Sequence record: PZ386956.1 | Length of the DNA: 53,024 nucleotides | Direction: 5' to 3' (one strand) | Origin: a phage | Part shown: positions 13,288 through 45,958 of the stretch, in pieces | Numbering within the stretch: the stretch's first letter is position 1 | Layout: each line of letters opens with the position of its first letter | Notes under the pieces: model-generated | Told to the model about the DNA's origin: nothing | The model's database searches: none | Seen by the model: the letters and a program-made list of their open reading frames with translations, nothing else | Made by a program: the position numbers and the translations under genes

Positions 13288-13319
13288 GGCCGGAAAGTCC
13301 ACCCAAGAGGTAAACAAAA

Positions 13320-14459
13320 ATGCCGTTGAATGTAAACCAGATTGTAAACGTTCAACTGAACAACACTCCAACTGGTATCAGCAAAGGTGACTTCGGTAAG
13401 CTGGCTCTTTTAACTCAGGATCCTGGCACTGCTTTTCCTGACAGCGACAACGGGCACTATGTTGAAATCGGCAGCTACTCTGAAGCCGAGTCTTATTGGG
13501 GTACTGGTTCAGTTGTACTTGGCGCGCTGAAGATTTTCTTTGCACAATCTCCGCGTCCTCGTTCAGTAGTTATCGCCTCATGGAGCAACACCGCTACTCT
13601 GGATGCGGCTATTAAAGCATTCAACGATGTGTATCCTGACTGGTATGTTCTGCGTCCGCTTCCGCCTACTGGCGAGCTGTCTGACGATGACATCAGTTTG
13701 CTGGCGTCAACTGTTGCTGCTTACGATAAAAAACGTTGCAGCTACACTACCACTAAAGCAACTCATATTGAAAACAGCGACTCCAACCCGATTAAAGTTC
13801 TGGCTGGTAAAGGCTACAACAATATGTGGCTTCAGTACGATAAGAACAACCAACACTATGCAGACATTTCTGCTATGGCGCGTGCTCTGTCTGTTAACTT
13901 CTCTGGTAACCGCACTACGATTACCATGAAGTTCAAACAAGAGCCTGGTATTACACCGAACAACACTTTAACGCTCACTGAAGCTAACAAGTGTAAAGCG
14001 CTGGGTATTAACTGGTACACCTACTACAGCACCTTTGCTATGCTTGCAGAAGGTACTGTCCTCGGTACGTCCAAGCCGCCGCGCTTCTGGGATGAAGTAC
14101 ATGGTCTCGACTGGTTCTGTAACGCTGTCCAGACTTATGTCTTCAACTCAATCGCTACGTCACCCACGAAGGTGCCGCAGACGAACAAAGGTCACGAGCG
14201 CCTTACCGGTGCTGCAGCTGTTGCTTGTCAGCAGGCTGTCGACAACGGCTTGGTTGCACCTGGTATCTGGTACGGTGATGAGTTTGGTACACTGTCTTAT
14301 GGTGACCGACTCGAGACAGGTTTCTACATCTACATCCCTGACGTAGATGACCAGCCTCTGGATGAGCGTGAAGCTCGTCAGGCCGTTGTAATGCAAATCG
14401 CGATTAAGCTGGCTGGTGCAATCCACTCCAGTGACATCCTGATTAACTTCACTCGCTAA
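13320..14459 (+). CDS. tail sheath protein (putative)
   Basis: 379-aa first gene of tail operon, followed by a 143-aa tube-sized gene, chaperone with frameshift site and tape measure (Mu/P2-like order). Confidence 0.6.
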   Translation: MPLNVNQIVNVQLNNTPTGISKGDFGKLALLTQDPGTAFPDSDNGHYVEIGSYSEAESYWGTGSVVLGALKIFFAQSPRPRSVVIASWSNTATLDAAIKAFNDVYPDWYVLRPLPPTGELSDDDISLLASTVAAYDKKRCSYTTTKATHIENSDSNPIKVLAGKGYNNMWLQYDKNNQHYADISAMARALSVNFSGNRTTITMKFKQEPGITPNNTLTLTEANKCKALGINWYTYYSTFAMLAEGTVLGTSKPPRFWDEVHGLDWFCNAVQTYVFNSIATSPTKVPQTNKGHERLTGAAAVACQQAVDNGLVAPGIWYGDEFGTLSYGDRLETGFYIYIPDVDDQPLDEREARQAVVMQIAIKLAGAIHSSDILINFTR

Positions 14460-14470
14460 GGAGCAGATCA

Positions 14471-14902
14471 ATGATCATCGATTCTTCTGAATGCGTGTTG
14501 AGCCTGAATGGTGTTCAGCTGTCCGACTGGGCAGACGGTGCCGATGTCATTGACGTGCAATGGGTGGACCCAGCTTCCACCTATCTTGCAGGTGCAGATG
14601 GCAATGGCATTCAGATTATGAACCCGTCCAAAGCCATTAAGCTAACTATCAAGGTTAAGCAAAATGGCCCGGATGCCAAATGGCTTAACGACCAGTACAA
14701 CCTGCAGCGTAACAACATTCGTGGATTTGTCCCGTTTGTGCTGCAAGCCAAAGACCTGCTAAACCAGGATTTGGCATGGGGTAAAAAAGGTTACTTTACC
14801 GATGGTTCCCCGTGGACTCGCGGTAACGGCCATAACCCGACTACCTTCGCTATTGTGTTCCACCAAGGTGGTATGCAGTTGACTGAAGGCTTTGACCAGT
14901 AA
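14471..14902 (+). CDS. tail tube protein (putative)
   Basis: 143-aa ORF between sheath and chaperone genes; RBS GGAG upstream. Confidence 0.6.
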   Translation: MIIDSSECVLSLNGVQLSDWADGADVIDVQWVDPASTYLAGADGNGIQIMNPSKAIKLTIKVKQNGPDAKWLNDQYNLQRNNIRGFVPFVLQAKDLLNQDLAWGKKGYFTDGSPWTRGNGHNPTTFAIVFHQGGMQLTEGFDQ

Positions 14903-14920
14903 CAATAGAGGAAAGCACAA

Positions 14921-15349
14921 ATGACTGAGCCCAAATCATTTGACATCGACGACGTAACGTACAACATGACACTCGCAAACGCGCTGCAAGCCTGGACAGT
15001 CCTGAAAAAAGCAGGTAAGCTGTTCAAAGGCATTGGCAACGCGGACATTGTGGGTAAAGACGGCAAAGTGGACGGTAAGAAAGCAATGCTGGTCCTGTTG
15101 GACGCTGTTCTGGAGAACGCAGGTTCTGACGAGATGACAGCTATTGAGGAACTAATCTTCCGCAATACTGTTGTTGTAGTTGATGGCAAACCGCGTAAGC
15201 TATCTGACTGTAAAGACCAACACTTCAACGCACATCGTAGCCATATCTTCGGTGTGCTCAAGGAGGGATTGGTATATCAGTTCGCGGATTTTTTCAAAGG
15301 GAATGGCCTGTCAGGTCTAGCGGGTCTAGCCACGCCCTTGACGAAATAA
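14921..15349 (+). CDS. tail assembly chaperone
   Basis: 142-aa ORF directly upstream of tape measure gene; contains slippery heptamer T_TTT_TTC near its 3' end. Confidence 0.6.
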   Translation: MTEPKSFDIDDVTYNMTLANALQAWTVLKKAGKLFKGIGNADIVGKDGKVDGKKAMLVLLDAVLENAGSDEMTAIEELIFRNTVVVVDGKPRKLSDCKDQHFNAHRSHIFGVLKEGLVYQFADFFKGNGLSGLAGLATPLTK

Positions 15350-15531
15350 AACGCAAGCAACAGTCAGGGACGCAAGAAACTGACTGGTTCGTTTGGCTTC
15401 CTATTCTCAAGGGTCATGTGACCCTTGCAGAATTAAAGTCGTCTTACAGCTTGTGTGATTTGTGCGACCTGCATATTGCTATTCTGGACTATGCCGAGTT
15501 AGAGGAAATCCATGGCGACCATAATCGATAG
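14921..15531 (+). CDS. tail assembly chaperone, -1 frameshift-extended isoform (predicted)
   Basis: From the slippery site T_TTT_TTC (15289-15295) the -1 frame is open for 81 codons, ending at TAG 15529-15531 just inside the tape measure gene. Confidence 0.4.
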
Positions 15532-17194
15532 CTTTCTGGTAACGCTTGAGAGTAAAGCTGATAGTTCTGGCTTTGACCTCTTCGACCAGCTGTCCCGCCG
15601 TTTTGTGATTACCCTCGGCGATGTAATCAATCTTGCTGAGCGTGCCGCTGGTGCGCTCGGTAGGATGTTTGCGCCTGCGTTAGAGGCTGACGTACTCGCC
15701 GCCAAGATTAAAGGCTTCGGCTACGACGTCGAATCGACGTGGAAAACGCTGATGGATATGTCTTTACAAATGGGCACACCATTTCAAGAGGCACTCGACG
15801 GCTTTACTAAACTTAAATCGTATGGCGTTGACCCGTTAAACGGTTCGCTACAAATGCTCAAAACAATCACTGCTGCAACAGGCGGTGATTTGGCACGTAC
15901 CATTGTTGCGTATGGCCAGGCGTCTGCTATGGGTTCATTGCAGGGCCAGGAAAAGAACCAGTTCATTAACGCCGGTGTTGACATCTGGGGCGCATTGTCC
16001 CGCTACACTGGTAAGAAGCTTGGCGAGCTTCAGGATATGATGCGGCAGAAGCAAATCACTGCCGACATACTGACTAGCGCGCTCAAACAAGAAGCCGAAC
16101 GTTTAAAACCAATTGCCCACGAAGTGTCACAGACACTCAAAGCGCAGTTAACTAACCTGGGCACAATTTGGTATGCTGCTCGTTCTAAGATTGCCCAGAC
16201 CAGAATATGGGATGAGGTAACTAAAGGCGCGATAGGTATGGTTAAGTCACTCACAGCAGTGCTTAACGATACCACACTTACTGCGGCGTTTAAAAAGTTC
16301 GACGAAGTTGTATTCAATACAATTGAAAACGTAAAACGACTTATCTATGTTATCGGGGATAACTTCCCGTTAATGGTTGCGATAACATCATACGCACTGC
16401 TGTCACTTATTCCCGTGCTGGCGGCACTTATTCCCTGGCTAGCCAAGGTCGGCAACGCCTTTGTGGGTTTAGCTACCAAAATGCTTATGAATCCGCTCAC
16501 GTGGTTTGCACTGGCTATCGGCACAGTTGTTGCTGTACTCACTGACCTCGACGACGCTCTGGCAGGACGTGAGACAGTTGTTAAGTGGTCAAAAGATGTT
16601 GTAGCCGCATGGGGAATTGTCAAGCAGTATATCGTAGTTATTGCAGACTTTATTCTGTCAATATTTGACGGTCGCTTATGGAACAAACTCGGTAACTGGT
16701 GGCAAGGTTTCCTTGTTGAAGTTAAGCAAGGCATAGAGCAAATAAAGCTGTGGTTGTCTGAAGCGCTTTACCAGCTGCCTGGTGGTAAGTTCCTGATGGC
16801 GTTGTTTGGTAAGCTCGATTCTACACTGGGCTTTGCTGGCAACAAACTTGTGGCAGGCGCTGAAGCTACTGCTAATGCTGTATCACCTACAACTGAACGG
16901 GGCGGAAGCTTCTGGAGTAGGGCACTCAACTGGTCTATGCGTAACTTCAACCCTATTACAGGGGAGATGACAGCTGGAGGCCAGGCTATGCAGTCAGCTA
17001 TAAATACAGCTAAGCAAAACCAACAACAGAACGCAACTGTTATCCATCAGGATAATAGCGTTAAAGTTGATGCTACTATTACCGGTGTACAGAACCCACA
17101 AGAAGTAGGTCGTGAGGTCAATGACCAGGTCAAACAGGCGCAGAAAGAGAATGCTACTGTAAGGGCCAACAACAAAACGGCGGTAACACAATGA
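15512..17194 (+). CDS. tail tape measure protein
   Basis: 560 aa, helical with central hydrophobic segments (LMVAITSYALLSLIPVLAALIPWLAKVG..., LTWFALAIGTVVAVL), canonical position after the chaperone. Confidence 0.8.
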   Translation: MATIIDSFLVTLESKADSSGFDLFDQLSRRFVITLGDVINLAERAAGALGRMFAPALEADVLAAKIKGFGYDVESTWKTLMDMSLQMGTPFQEALDGFTKLKSYGVDPLNGSLQMLKTITAATGGDLARTIVAYGQASAMGSLQGQEKNQFINAGVDIWGALSRYTGKKLGELQDMMRQKQITADILTSALKQEAERLKPIAHEVSQTLKAQLTNLGTIWYAARSKIAQTRIWDEVTKGAIGMVKSLTAVLNDTTLTAAFKKFDEVVFNTIENVKRLIYVIGDNFPLMVAITSYALLSLIPVLAALIPWLAKVGNAFVGLATKMLMNPLTWFALAIGTVVAVLTDLDDALAGRETVVKWSKDVVAAWGIVKQYIVVIADFILSIFDGRLWNKLGNWWQGFLVEVKQGIEQIKLWLSEALYQLPGGKFLMALFGKLDSTLGFAGNKLVAGAEATANAVSPTTERGGSFWSRALNWSMRNFNPITGEMTAGGQAMQSAINTAKQNQQQNATVIHQDNSVKVDATITGVQNPQEVGREVNDQVKQAQKENATVRANNKTAVTQ

Positions 17195-18087
17195 GTGACA
17201 TCTTTGCTGGAATTACTGATGCTGCCAACGACTTGTACCAAGATGCCCGTGACAGACTCATGGGCGACGGTACAACCACCTTACGCTTCCGCAACTGCGG
17301 AGGCATTAAGATGGATGCTGTCACTAACGAAGAACATCAGTCTGACCTTGACATCGCTGACAACGAACTTGAGTCCGGGGCTAAGGCTTCGGACCATGCT
17401 GCAGTACAACCAAAAGTTATTACTGTAACTGGTGTTGTAGTTGGCTATATCGACGAGTCGATTCAAGAGTCAACAATTAACGACGTAACCGGCTTACGGT
17501 CTATGGATTTCTTGGATGATATTCAGCTTCCACAGGTAGTGTCTACTGTCCTCGAAGGAACAAGGGACTTTGCCGTTAACAAGCTAGTCTCATTCATAGA
17601 CTGGGGCGGTTTAGACGCCACCATTTCACGCTCTTTAGTTCCATGGCTTCCTGACTTTAGTATAGCTGAACAACTTAAGTCTTCGGACAACATGAGGATT
17701 GAACAGGTATACCGTACACTGCTGGATTTACAGAAAAACGTTATTTACTGTGACGTTGATACTGGTATCTTCAAGTATACGAATATGCTTTTGAAGTCTG
17801 TTCGTGTTGTGCAGGAGAAAGATGGTTCAGCTACGTTTACCCTTACGTTCCGTGAAGTCATTGAAGTACCGATTGTAGTTACAAACGCTGTAGCCGCTAA
17901 GTCGACAGGCCGCCCTGCTAATAACGGCACTAAGAAAAGCGGACGTGCACAAGGTCAGGGTGATGCCACCAGTAAGAAGGACATAAACACAACTACACCG
18001 ATTAGCGAGAAACGTGTAAACGATAACCGCGGTTTTGGTGTAACGCTCGGTGACATGTTTGGCTTTAACTTACGAGGCATATTCTGA
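17191..18087 (+). CDS. tail/baseplate protein (Mu gpN-like position)
   Basis: 298-aa ORF overlapping the tape measure stop (ATGA); function from synteny only. Confidence 0.45.
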   Translation: MSDIFAGITDAANDLYQDARDRLMGDGTTTLRFRNCGGIKMDAVTNEEHQSDLDIADNELESGAKASDHAAVQPKVITVTGVVVGYIDESIQESTINDVTGLRSMDFLDDIQLPQVVSTVLEGTRDFAVNKLVSFIDWGGLDATISRSLVPWLPDFSIAEQLKSSDNMRIEQVYRTLLDLQKNVIYCDVDTGIFKYTNMLLKSVRVVQEKDGSATFTLTFREVIEVPIVVTNAVAAKSTGRPANNGTKKSGRAQGQGDATSKKDINTTTPISEKRVNDNRGFGVTLGDMFGFNLRGIF

Positions 18088-44902: not shown

Positions 44903-45026
44903 CTGATAAATAATTCGTAGGCATGTCTAAAGCCAGGCGTGGCAAGCTTCGGTGATATTTACTATGTTATTGTATGTTAGTGTGCGTTATAATATATTTA
45001 TTATTCAACAGATGAGTTGTGCAACT

Positions 45027-45533
45027 ATGGATCCAATTGTAAAAGTATTTGAAGGTAAAAATATCACATTTTCATCAATTAAGAGGGGTACCAAAATGGC
45101 ATCCCTCATTGTTGTTAAAGGAAGCGATTTAGCTAAAGCGCTGGGCTACAGCTACGCGGAAAAACTTTATAAAAGGTTAGACAGCGATTATAAAATTACT
45201 GATGACAAAGGAGCAGTATGGGTAACTGAACCTGGTATTTATCAGGCTATATTCGGTTCGCAGCTTGAATCAGCTAAAGCATTTCAGCGCTGGGCATACG
45301 AAGAAGTATTTCCCACCATTCGTGGGAATGGTTATTACGTTACACCAGAGCTTCAACCAGTGCTGGATCTACTGTCTGATGAAATAGACTTACTACGTGC
45401 ATATGCTACAGCTGACTGCCACGGAAGAGCAAGGCTTAAGTCAAGAATTATGACGATATGGAAAAAACAAGTAGAAAATGGTAACTCTTTGGACCGCGTA
45501 GTCCAGATTTTAAAAGGAAACAGTGCATGGTAA
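45027..45533 (+). CDS. Bro-N domain protein
   Basis: Bro-N signature (VFEGKNITF...SLIVVKGSDLAKALGY...GIYQAIFGSQLESAKAFQRWAYEEVFPTIRGNGYY); start could also be 44952 or 45012. Confidence 0.65.
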   Translation: MDPIVKVFEGKNITFSSIKRGTKMASLIVVKGSDLAKALGYSYAEKLYKRLDSDYKITDDKGAVWVTEPGIYQAIFGSQLESAKAFQRWAYEEVFPTIRGNGYYVTPELQPVLDLLSDEIDLLRAYATADCHGRARLKSRIMTIWKKQVENGNSLDRVVQILKGNSAW

Positions 45534-45958
45534 ATATTCGTGTTATTGGCCAGAACTTTGAGAGAAAGATGGCTAAAAAATTCAACGAATCTTTTGGACT
45601 TGACTGCCAGCGTAACCTGCAGCAATCAATAAATGGCGGGGATGACTTGCTTGGTATACCGTTTTTCAGCGTTGAACTGAAGAAGCACAAGACCAAGTCT
45701 ATCGGAACATGGTGGAGACAGTGTGCGGCATCGGCAAAGGCTCAGAACAAGATGCCGGTACTGATATACGAACTACCAAGAAAACAGCCTACCGTGGTGA
45801 TGAATAAGGCTGATGTGATTGACTGCTTTCCAAGTGGCACGACTTTTAACGAGGCATCGAACCGCCTCTTTGTGGGTCTAGTAGAATTAACATGGGAACA
45901 ATTTTGCCGGGTCTACAACTATTACGTTGCGCCCGGCACTCAATATCACGTCAATTAA
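45527..45958 (+). CDS. VRR-NUC-like PD-(D/E)xK nuclease (putative)
   Basis: 143 aa; D...E-x-K arrangement (GDDLLGIPFFSVELKK) typical of small phage nucleases/resolvases; overlaps Bro-N stop. Confidence 0.45.
   Translation: MVNIRVIGQNFERKMAKKFNESFGLDCQRNLQQSINGGDDLLGIPFFSVELKKHKTKSIGTWWRQCAASAKAQNKMPVLIYELPRKQPTVVMNKADVIDCFPSGTTFNEASNRLFVGLVELTWEQFCRVYNYYVAPGTQYHVN

What the first reader, a model, noticed from the sequence alone, without database searches (positions are those of the whole stretch)
15289..15531. Predicted -1 programmed ribosomal frameshift in the tail assembly chaperone gene
The chaperone ORF (14921..15349) contains the slippery heptamer T_TTT_TTC at 15289-15295 in the zero frame (ga-T TTT TTC). 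From there the -1 frame stays open for 81 codons (…KRKQQSGTQETDWFVWLPILKGHVTLAELKSSY…) and ends at TAG 15529-15531, just inside the tape measure gene. This matches the conserved G/GT-type frameshift arrangement of tailed phages and explains the otherwise unused 160-nt gap before the tape measure gene. Six-frame ORF calling does not report the extension.
Basis: partly seen in the sequence, partly recalled or inferred. Interest (0 to 1): 0.5.

Follow-up and report, generated by a model that had tools for sequence, protein, structure and literature searches.

The report
Tail chaperone -1 ribosomal frameshift site
This phage almost certainly makes a longer second version of its tail assembly chaperone by letting ribosomes slip back one base at a run of six T's, a well-known phage trick that is not annotated in about 60 public genomes of this phage group.

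Summary
The window is a Rosemountvirus-type myophage, 99% identical to Salmonella phage BP63. ORF 14921..15349 is a Pfam Phage_TAC_9 tail assembly chaperone lying between the tube gene and the tape measure gene. T_TTT_TTC sits in the zero frame at 15289-15295. The -1 frame is then open for 80 codons to TAG 15529-15531, 20 nt inside the tape measure gene.

Comparative evidence is strong. In every relative examined, down to 33% chaperone identity, a U_UUU_UUN heptamer lies at the same in-frame position. It is TTTTTTC in all but two, TTTTTTT in Aaphi23 and TTTTTTG in Proteus phage ZX7. The -1 frame stays open for 64-81 codons in all of them. In all but one locus (L029) it ends inside the tape measure gene start.

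The extension is conserved as protein (DWFxWxP…LxEL…YxLxDL…H), and substitutions peak at codon position 3 of the -1 frame. No start codon could initiate it independently.

The homologous ORF54-54' of phage Aaphi23 is already annotated as a joined CDS. The predicted products are a 142-aa TAC-N and a 203-aa TAC-NC, analogous to lambda gpG/gpGT. A downstream hairpin is possible but unproven.

This is a new member of a known kind. It is a useful annotation fix with low surprise.

The parts
14921..15349 (+). TAC-N: zero-frame tail assembly chaperone ORF, 142 aa
   Evidence: Pfam Phage_TAC_9 PF10876 at E 4.5e-33 and Phage_TAC_15 at E 1.2e-16. phrog_6419 and phrog_1613 'tail assembly chaperone'. The AF2 model matches BFVD proteins named tail assembly or tape measure chaperone, including Citrobacter phage Moogle.
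15289..15295 (+). Slippery heptamer T_TTT_TTC (X_XXY_YYZ) in zero-frame register; Phe124-Phe125 codons
   Evidence: It is invariant and in register in all related loci. The variants are T_TTT_TTT in Aaphi23 and T_TTT_TTG in Proteus phage ZX7.
15295..15531 (+). -1 frame extension (T-like domain), 78 codons plus TAG. The fusion product TAC-NC is 14921..15295 joined to 15295..15531, 203 aa.
   Evidence: It is open in all relatives, conserved as protein, and shows a codon-position-3 excess of substitutions in this frame.
15295..15349 (+). Dual-coded overlap, where both the zero and -1 frames are translated; a block of unusually high nucleotide conservation
   Evidence: Alignment A1: GGGAATGGCCTGTCAGG is identical in lineages whose 611-nt TAC region is only 66-79% identical.
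15297..15340 (+). Candidate frameshift-stimulating hairpin (AAGGG..UGGC…GCCA..CCCUU), unproven
   Evidence: The MFE is -15.4 kcal/mol, among the most stable 4% of local 45-nt windows, but the shuffle z-score is only -0.9. There is no covariation, and no comparably stable hairpin in three distant lineages.
15418..15531 (+). 37-aa GTG-started ORF that some records annotate as 'hypothetical protein' (BP63 gp35); in fact the C-terminal fragment of the extension
   Evidence: P0009. Protein conservation extends well upstream of this GTG.
15512..17194 (+). Tape measure protein gene; its start overlaps the end of the extension by 20 nt
   Evidence: Pfam TMP_3 at E 9.4e-20, and phrog_29251.
13320..14902 (+). 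Context: tail sheath (13320-14459, DUF3383) and tail tube (14471-14902)
   Evidence: plus the annotations.

Best explanation
This is a -1 programmed ribosomal frameshift in the tail assembly chaperone gene.

Most ribosomes read 14921..15349 and release the 142-aa TAC-N. A minority slip while tRNA-Phe occupies the P site on UUU (15290-92) and the A site on UUC (15293-95). Both tRNAs re-pair one base back, on UUU/UUU at 15289-94. Translation then continues from CAA 15295 in the -1 frame to TAG 15529-31.

The result is a 203-aa TAC-NC made of residues 1-125 of TAC-N plus a 78-aa C-terminal domain.

By analogy with lambda gpG/gpGT, both forms would coat the tape measure protein through the shared N-terminal part. 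The rarer C-terminal domain would recruit tube subunits, so a fixed ratio of the two forms is set translationally.

Shown here: the sequence anatomy, its deep conservation, and purifying selection on the -1 frame. Inferred: the slippage event itself, its efficiency, and the roles of the two products.
For: 1. A canonical heptamer sits in register, followed by 80 open -1 codons, against a window mean of 13.
2. Gene identity and synteny fit: PF10876 TAC lying between the tube and tape measure genes.
3. The heptamer is invariant in Rosemountvirus, Loughboroughvirus, the KE25/SOI901/fHy-Eco03 group and Pasteurellaceae prophage-type contigs, down to 33% TAC identity. The codon before it always ends in T (GAT or GGT) and the first Phe is always TTT, although the window overall uses GAC more than GAT and TTC more than TTT, and neighbouring synonymous sites vary.
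4. The -1 frame has 0 stops in all 14 loci tabulated, while the other two frames have 2-10 each. The -1 ORF ends 14-23 nt inside the tape measure start wherever one was located, except L029, where it stops 13 nt upstream.
5. The extension aligns as protein with invariant DWF…P…L.EL…Y.L.DL…H. Substitutions in the -1 frame run position 3 > 1 > 2, for example 12/0/21 for L013 versus L016.
6. There is no ATG/GTG/TTG in the -1 frame between the upstream stop at 15238 and GTG 15418, yet conservation covers that stretch.
7. The window fusion aligns end to end (residues 1-196, 39% identity, E 2e-46) with the fusion from phage Aaphi23, whose record annotates a joined CDS ORF54-54' ending at the same stop.
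8. U_UU.U_UU.C is listed among E. coli heptamers with more than 0.10% -1 frameshifting in vivo without added stimulators. H_HH.U_UU.Y motifs are classed among the most efficient in E. coli, and this heptamer is used by some IS elements (PMC4066793).
9. The same kind of argument has been published for poly-T sites in the TAC genes of Vandenendeviridae and Andersonviridae myophages (PMC12846349).
Against: There is no direct expression evidence. The fHy-Eco03 particle proteomics lists only the TAC-N homologue, and no extension peptides were found in the supplement. The S144 paper does not mention a frameshift.

No convincing stimulatory element was found. The downstream hairpin starts only 1-2 nt after the heptamer in the MFE fold, has a shuffle z-score of -0.9 in the window, shows no covariation, and has no comparably stable counterpart in L008, ZX7 and Aaphi23. 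The upstream AAGGAGG is 22 nt away and is not conserved.

The Phe-Phe dipeptide is itself conserved in TAC-N, so part of the heptamer's conservation is protein-level.

One record (SPHG1) lacks an intact extension, but it looks misassembled.
Confidence: 0.9

Rival explanations
1. Transcriptional slippage: RNA polymerase stutters on the T6 run and produces a fraction of mRNAs with one U fewer (or two more). Standard translation of those mRNAs then gives the same fusion protein.
For: The site is a homopolymer run, and the outcome would be indistinguishable at the genome level. A decayed relative (L035) carries T8 at exactly this position, which puts both parts in one frame and shows that the run does change length over evolutionary time. 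Aaphi23 has T7.
Against: From general knowledge, bacterial RNA polymerase slippage usually needs runs of about 8-9 or more A/T, and six is short. The register of the run relative to the zero frame is strictly conserved as X_XXY_YYZ in all lineages, which matters for tRNA re-pairing but not for polymerase slippage. U_UU.U_UU.C is an experimentally validated ribosomal -1 motif in E. coli (PMC4066793).
Confidence: 0.05
2. The downstream region encodes an independent small protein, initiated at GTG 15418 (37 aa, as annotated for BP63 gp35) or at a non-canonical start. No frameshift occurs.
For: Several GenBank records annotate such a short ORF. Matching 37-aa and 45-aa proteins exist in protein databases.
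Against: Protein-level conservation, including the invariant DWF motif, begins upstream of those starts and runs back to the heptamer. The position of the first in-frame start differs between lineages. No canonical start exists between 15238 and 15418. A separate gene would not need the -1 ORF to begin exactly at a conserved slippery heptamer inside the TAC gene in every lineage.
Confidence: 0.03
3. Coincidence: the open -1 frame and the T-run are by-products of composition and of a conserved Phe-Phe dipeptide, and the 162-nt gap is non-coding.
For: FF is conserved in TAC-N, and TTTTTTC also occurs elsewhere in the window without consequence.
Against: There are zero stops in the -1 frame across about 9 lineages, against 2-10 in each other frame. 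A codon-position-3 excess and conserved amino-acid motifs are present in the supposedly non-coding gap.
Confidence: 0.01

Closest known systems
Bacteriophage lambda gpG/gpGT -1 programmed frameshift (Levin et al. 1993; Xu, Hendrix & Duda 2004, 2013, 2014; as summarised in PMC5009743)
   Same: There are two products from one start. [quoted passage not shown] The extension ends at the tape measure start. The presumed role is chaperoning the tape measure and recruiting tube subunits at a fixed ratio.
   Different: There is no detectable sequence similarity to lambda G or T, and the Pfam family differs (PF10876). The heptamer is U_UUU_UUC rather than G_GGA_AAG. The virion is a contractile-tailed myophage. 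Here the zero frame runs 18 codons past the slip site.
Haemophilus/Aggregatibacter phage Aaphi23 ORF54-54' (GenBank AJ560763.1, joined CDS CAG18454.1)
   Same: It is homologous over the whole fusion (39% identity, E 2e-46). The slip position is the same, in the motif QxADFF, and the -1 ORF ends in the tape measure start.
   Different: The heptamer is T_TTT_TTT. It is a temperate Pasteurellaceae phage of 43 kb. Its frameshift is annotated, whereas the Rosemountvirus and Loughboroughvirus records examined, and the feature labels listed for the rest, show none.
TAC-N/TAC-NC -1 frameshift proposed for Vandenendeviridae (Pakpunavirus Adele) and Andersonviridae (Mooglevirus) myophages, with a conserved GTTTTT motif (PMC12846349)
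   Same: It has the same gene order and a poly-T slip site near the 3' end of TAC-N. The downstream fragment is routinely mis-annotated as a hypothetical protein, and the same comparative argument applies. The TAC-N model here matches the Moogle 'tape measure chaperone' in fold (E 6e-4, TMq 0.63). The tube protein weakly matches KPP10_Orf10.
   Different: The phage genera differ, with no family assigned in the records' taxonomy lines. I did not test sequence-level homology of the extension to those families.
Phage P2 E/E+E' frameshift at T_TTT_TTG (recalled from Christie et al. 2002; not checked here)
   Same: It is a myophage with a U6-type heptamer, in the gene pair preceding the tape measure gene. 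Proteus phage ZX7, a relative of the window's TAC, uses exactly T_TTT_TTG.
   Different: I did not test homology to P2 E, and the Pfam family differs.

Membership tests
Tail assembly chaperone with -1 PRF (gpG/gpGT-type arrangement) | The gene lies immediately upstream of the tape measure gene and downstream of the major tail/tube gene. | tested here: met
   The order is sheath 13320-14459, tube 14471-14902, TAC 14921-15349, TMP 15512-17194.
Tail assembly chaperone with -1 PRF (gpG/gpGT-type arrangement) | [quoted passage not shown] | tested here: met
   T_TTT_TTC lies at 15289-15295, 18 codons before the stop.
Tail assembly chaperone with -1 PRF (gpG/gpGT-type arrangement) | The overlapping -1 ORF lacks its own start and extends to about the tape measure start. 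| tested here: met
   There are 80 codons, no canonical start before 15418, and the ORF ends 20 nt into the TMP gene.
Tail assembly chaperone with -1 PRF (gpG/gpGT-type arrangement) | The slip site and the open, protein-conserved -1 frame are conserved in divergent relatives. | tested here: met
Tail assembly chaperone with -1 PRF (gpG/gpGT-type arrangement) | Two protein products are actually made, at a low GT:G ratio. | not testable with these tools
   This needs proteomics, western blotting or a reporter assay. Published particle proteomics of fHy-Eco03 lists only the TAC-N homologue.
Tail assembly chaperone with -1 PRF (gpG/gpGT-type arrangement) | A stimulatory element is present (a 3' RNA structure or a 5' SD-like sequence). 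It is not obligatory for the family. | tested here: inconclusive
   The hairpin is -15.4 kcal/mol with a z-score of -0.9 and no covariation, and three lineages have no comparably stable one. The SD-like AAGGAGG is not conserved. There is no Rfam match.
Pfam PF10876 Phage_TAC_9 | The score is above the curated gathering threshold. | tested here: met
   The score is 114.7 bits against a cut-off of 25, covering profile positions 2-132 of 144.
Lambda gpG / gpT sequence families | Sequence or solved-structure similarity to lambda-type G or T. | tested here: not met
   No Pfam hit other than TAC_9 and TAC_15. There is no PDB sequence hit and no significant PDB fold hit (best E 0.049). The extension has no Pfam hit. 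The relationship is analogy of arrangement, not demonstrated homology.

The most novel reading that the evidence does not exclude
The near-invariant 35-40 nt block immediately 3' of the heptamer (GGGAAUGGCCUGUCAGG…GGCCA) may be more than a by-product of dual coding. It could be a dedicated frameshift stimulator with an unusually short spacer, or one acting with the nascent peptide. Alternatively, the long form could be made by a non-ribosomal route, as has been suggested for T4-like TAC genes (Vladimirov et al. 2022, cited in PMC12846349). Either reading would make this compact, easily manipulated E. coli/Salmonella phage a new model for how U6-type sites are tuned.
Probability: 0.1. Interest if true: 0.45.

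Novelty: new member of a known kind. Interest (0 to 1): 0.22.

Why it matters
The main value is correct annotation. None of the Rosemountvirus, Loughboroughvirus or related records I opened annotates the 203-aa product, and the feature labels listed for the other matching records show none either. Several call a spurious 37-45 aa 'hypothetical protein', and protein databases contain no full-length fusion. These phages are widely proposed for Salmonella and E. coli biocontrol, so a complete structural gene list is useful.

The data also extend the conserved TAC frameshift to the PF10876 chaperone family. Its U_UUU_UUN site is preserved from virulent enterobacterial myophages to Pasteurellaceae prophages. 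That adds a clean comparative example, but it does not change the understanding of the mechanism.

Tried and rejected
- **Structure of the fusion.** The extension alone, as a single sequence, gave an uninformative low-confidence helical model (pLDDT 54).
- **PDB searches.** The sequence search and the fold search with the TAC-N model gave no significant solved homologue.
- **Rfam.** The scan of 15100-15700 found only chance-level matches.
- **Promoters and terminators.** The scan found no terminator in the gap and nothing above shuffle expectation.
- **Consensus RNA fold.** The downstream region gave a 9-pair hairpin with zero compensatory changes, so structure can be neither confirmed nor excluded.
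- **Upstream SD-like AAGGAGG.** I rejected it as a conserved stimulator because it is absent from other lineages and lies 22 nt away.
- **Search with the extension.** A search of 1.84 billion representatives returned only short fragment ORFs, one decayed in-frame remnant, and multi-stretch matches in long proteins that I did not examine further and regard as probable low-complexity noise.
- **Genome-contig scan.** It added only 2 loci.
- **Literature.** I found no paper reporting this frameshift for Rosemountvirus or Loughboroughvirus. The original Aaphi23 paper is not held.
- **The second heptamer.** The other heptamer with a long open -1 frame (TTTAAAA at 45509) is just the next gene, which has its own ATG at 45527.

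Full report
**What is in the sequence**

The window matches Salmonella phage BP63 (genus Rosemountvirus) at 99.1% over 13300-17200. About 45 further Salmonella and Escherichia phage records match at more than 95%.

The finding lies in the tail module:
- sheath, 13320-14459 (DUF3383, phrog_205);
- tube, 14471-14902;
- a 142-aa ORF, 14921-15349;
- a 560-aa tape measure protein, 15512-17194 (TMP_3, phrog_29251).

The 142-aa ORF scores 114.7 bits (E 4.5e-33) on Pfam Phage_TAC_9 and also hits Phage_TAC_15. Its AlphaFold model (pLDDT 75) matches BFVD entries named tail assembly or tape measure chaperone, including that of Citrobacter phage Moogle. No solved structure matches it.

**Checking the observation**

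Reading the bases gives the zero-frame codons GAT TTT TTC at 15287-15295. T_TTT_TTC at 15289-15295 is therefore a canonical X_XXY_YYZ heptamer in register.

The -1 frame is closed by TAG at 15238. From 15289 it runs 80 sense codons to TAG 15529-15531, which is 20 nt inside the tape measure gene. The zero frame continues for 18 codons past the heptamer to TAA 15347-15349. That leaves 162 nt with no zero-frame coding.

The first canonical start in the -1 frame is GTG 15418. This is why ORF lists show nothing of 40 aa or more there, and why BP63 carries a 37-aa 'hypothetical protein' gp35.

As a chance control I examined all ORFs of 120 aa or more in the window. The -1 frame is open for 13 codons on average, and for 80 or more at 1.8% of positions. 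Of 26 in-frame heptamers, the only other one followed by a long open -1 frame (45509) is simply the next gene, which has its own ATG.

**Comparative test**

This is the decisive evidence. I collected the locus from the following groups:
- Rosemountvirus;
- Loughboroughvirus (ZCSE2, SE4, S144, PK3, AEV23; TAC about 83% identical);
- the KE25, SOI901, vB_SE1_KM and fHy-Eco03 group, plus an IMG/VR contig (about 60%);
- Pasteurellaceae-type phages and prophage contigs (33-44%);
- Proteus phage ZX7 (29% over the fusion).

In every one a U6 heptamer sits at the same in-frame position, inside the conserved motif QF(A/G)(D/G)FF. It is TTTTTTC in all but two, TTTTTTT in Aaphi23 and TTTTTTG in ZX7.

The codon before it always ends in T (GAT or GGT), and the first Phe is always TTT. 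Yet the window's genes prefer GAC (534 versus 341) and TTC (292 versus 247), and flanking synonymous sites vary freely.

From the heptamer to the -1 stop, the -1 frame has no stop in any of the 14 loci tabulated. The zero frame has 2-7 and the +1 frame 3-10.

The -1 ORF is 64-81 codons long. It ends 14-23 nt inside the tape measure start wherever one was located, except in L029, where it stops 13 nt upstream.

The extensions align as protein, with a variable basic or acidic linker followed by invariant DWF(I/V)(W/F)xP…(T/S)LxEL(K/R)xxY(S/T)LxDL…H.

Pairwise substitutions in the part outside the zero-frame ORF follow the coding signature of the -1 frame. Examples are 12/0/21 at positions 1/2/3 for KE25 versus fHy-Eco03, 7/0/19 for KE25 versus SOI901, and 11/5/22 for the window versus ZCSE2.

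tblastn finds the 80-aa extension uninterrupted in 62 phage records.

**Is it already known?**

None of the Rosemountvirus or Loughboroughvirus records I opened annotates a joined CDS, and the feature labels listed for the remaining matching records show none. The 5.8-billion-protein collection contains no protein covering more than 66% of the fusion. The S144 genome paper describes ORF22 only as 'a chaperone' (PMC7432712).

The homologous gene pair of phage Aaphi23, however, is annotated in GenBank as a two-piece CDS 'ORF54-54'' ending at the same -1 stop. The window's fusion aligns with the Aaphi23 fusion over residues 1-196 at 39% identity, E 2e-46.

A 2025 paper makes the same comparative argument for a poly-T (GTTTTT) site in the TAC genes of Vandenendeviridae and Andersonviridae myophages. 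It notes that the downstream fragment is routinely mis-annotated (PMC12846349).

The general phenomenon, lambda G/GT and its conservation across tailed phages, is textbook (PMC5009743).

**Mechanism**

The best-supported mechanism is tandem -1 slippage of two tRNA-Phe, from UUU-UUC to UUU-UUU. It yields TAC-N (142 aa) and TAC-NC (203 aa: residues 1-125, then QREWPV…HNR).

U_UU.U_UU.C is among the E. coli heptamers that give more than 0.10% shifting without added stimulators. H_HH.U_UU.Y motifs are classed as high-efficiency, and this heptamer is used by some IS elements (PMC4066793).

Stimulators are unresolved:
- The 45 nt after the heptamer fold to -15.4 kcal/mol, among the most stable 4% of local windows. 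In 7 of 12 lineages the equivalent window falls within the most stable 6%.
- The shuffle z-score is only -0.9 in the window. The consensus hairpin has no compensatory changes. Three distant lineages lack a comparably stable hairpin.
- The same block is dual-coded, which alone explains its near-invariance.
- An SD-like AAGGAGG at 15260-15266 lies 22 nt upstream and is not conserved.
- There is no Rfam match and no terminator in the gap.

**Rivals**

- *Transcriptional slippage.* It cannot be excluded from sequence alone, but it is disfavoured by the short run and by the strictly conserved codon register.
- *An independent small gene.* It is contradicted by conservation upstream of any start codon.
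- *Chance.* It is excluded by the comparative data.

A decayed relative (L035/P0014) has T8 at this exact spot, which fuses the TAC C-terminus and the extension in one frame. This marks the T-run as the junction, but it comes from a pseudogenised remnant.

**Verdict**

It is a new member of a known kind. The result is a worthwhile annotation correction for about 60 public genomes, but it is not surprising to a specialist.

Noticed in passing
L039 (MW413353.1 Salmonella phage SPHG1), equivalent to window 14471-16992: This 47-kb record has the tube and TAC genes fused by a deletion (window 14891-14941 missing). The equivalent of 15350-15417 is inverted and 15418-15511 is absent. It looks like an assembly artefact. 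Its 261-aa 'hypothetical protein' is probably the odd 261-aa BFVD hit A0A7T8C3J2.
   Followed up: partly
L035:2900-3366 (ENA ERZ27235517 k119_140285): This is a decayed TAC remnant, with in-frame stops upstream, next to a DDE transposase and an RHS/Tc-toxin gene. Its T-run is T8 (GATTTTTTTTCTGG), so the TAC C-terminus and the T-like domain are read in one frame as a 121-aa ORF.
   Followed up: partly
L016 (MW602648.1 fHy-Eco03 gp34), homologue of window 14921-15349: The TAC-N homologue was reported as particle-associated by LC-MS/MS (3 unique peptides), although chaperones are normally absent from virions. 48 of 81 proteins were so classed, so the preparation was probably not stringent.
   Followed up: partly
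window 15260-15266: A perfect Shine-Dalgarno-like AAGGAGG lies inside the TAC gene, 22 nt upstream of the heptamer. It is present only in the Rosemountvirus lineage.
   Followed up: yes
window 45509 (ORF 44952-45533 / 45527-45958): An in-frame TTTAAAA heptamer lies 7 codons before a stop, followed by 149 open -1 codons. It is explained by the next gene starting at ATG 45527 with a 7-nt overlap, so it is not a frameshift candidate.
   Followed up: yes
records PP583539.1 and JAEWER010000021.1 (L033): A record labelled 'Listeria phage 220426122051' is 98.5% identical to this enterobacterial phage region. A contig labelled 'MAG: Bacillota bacterium' encodes a 100% identical TAC. The host and bin labels look doubtful.
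   Followed up: no
L012:1104-1913 (PV467744.1 Salmonella phage PK3), antisense to the TAC gene: The record annotates a 269-aa 'hypothetical protein' on the opposite strand, spanning the tube and TAC genes. This is probably a spurious gene call. The window has a similar 156-aa antisense ORF at 14791-15261.
   Followed up: no
window 15298-15333 and alignment A1: The 17-nt block GGGAATGGCCTGTCAGG is identical between lineages whose 611-nt TAC region is only 66-79% identical. Dual coding would explain this, but it could also reflect an RNA element.
   Followed up: partly
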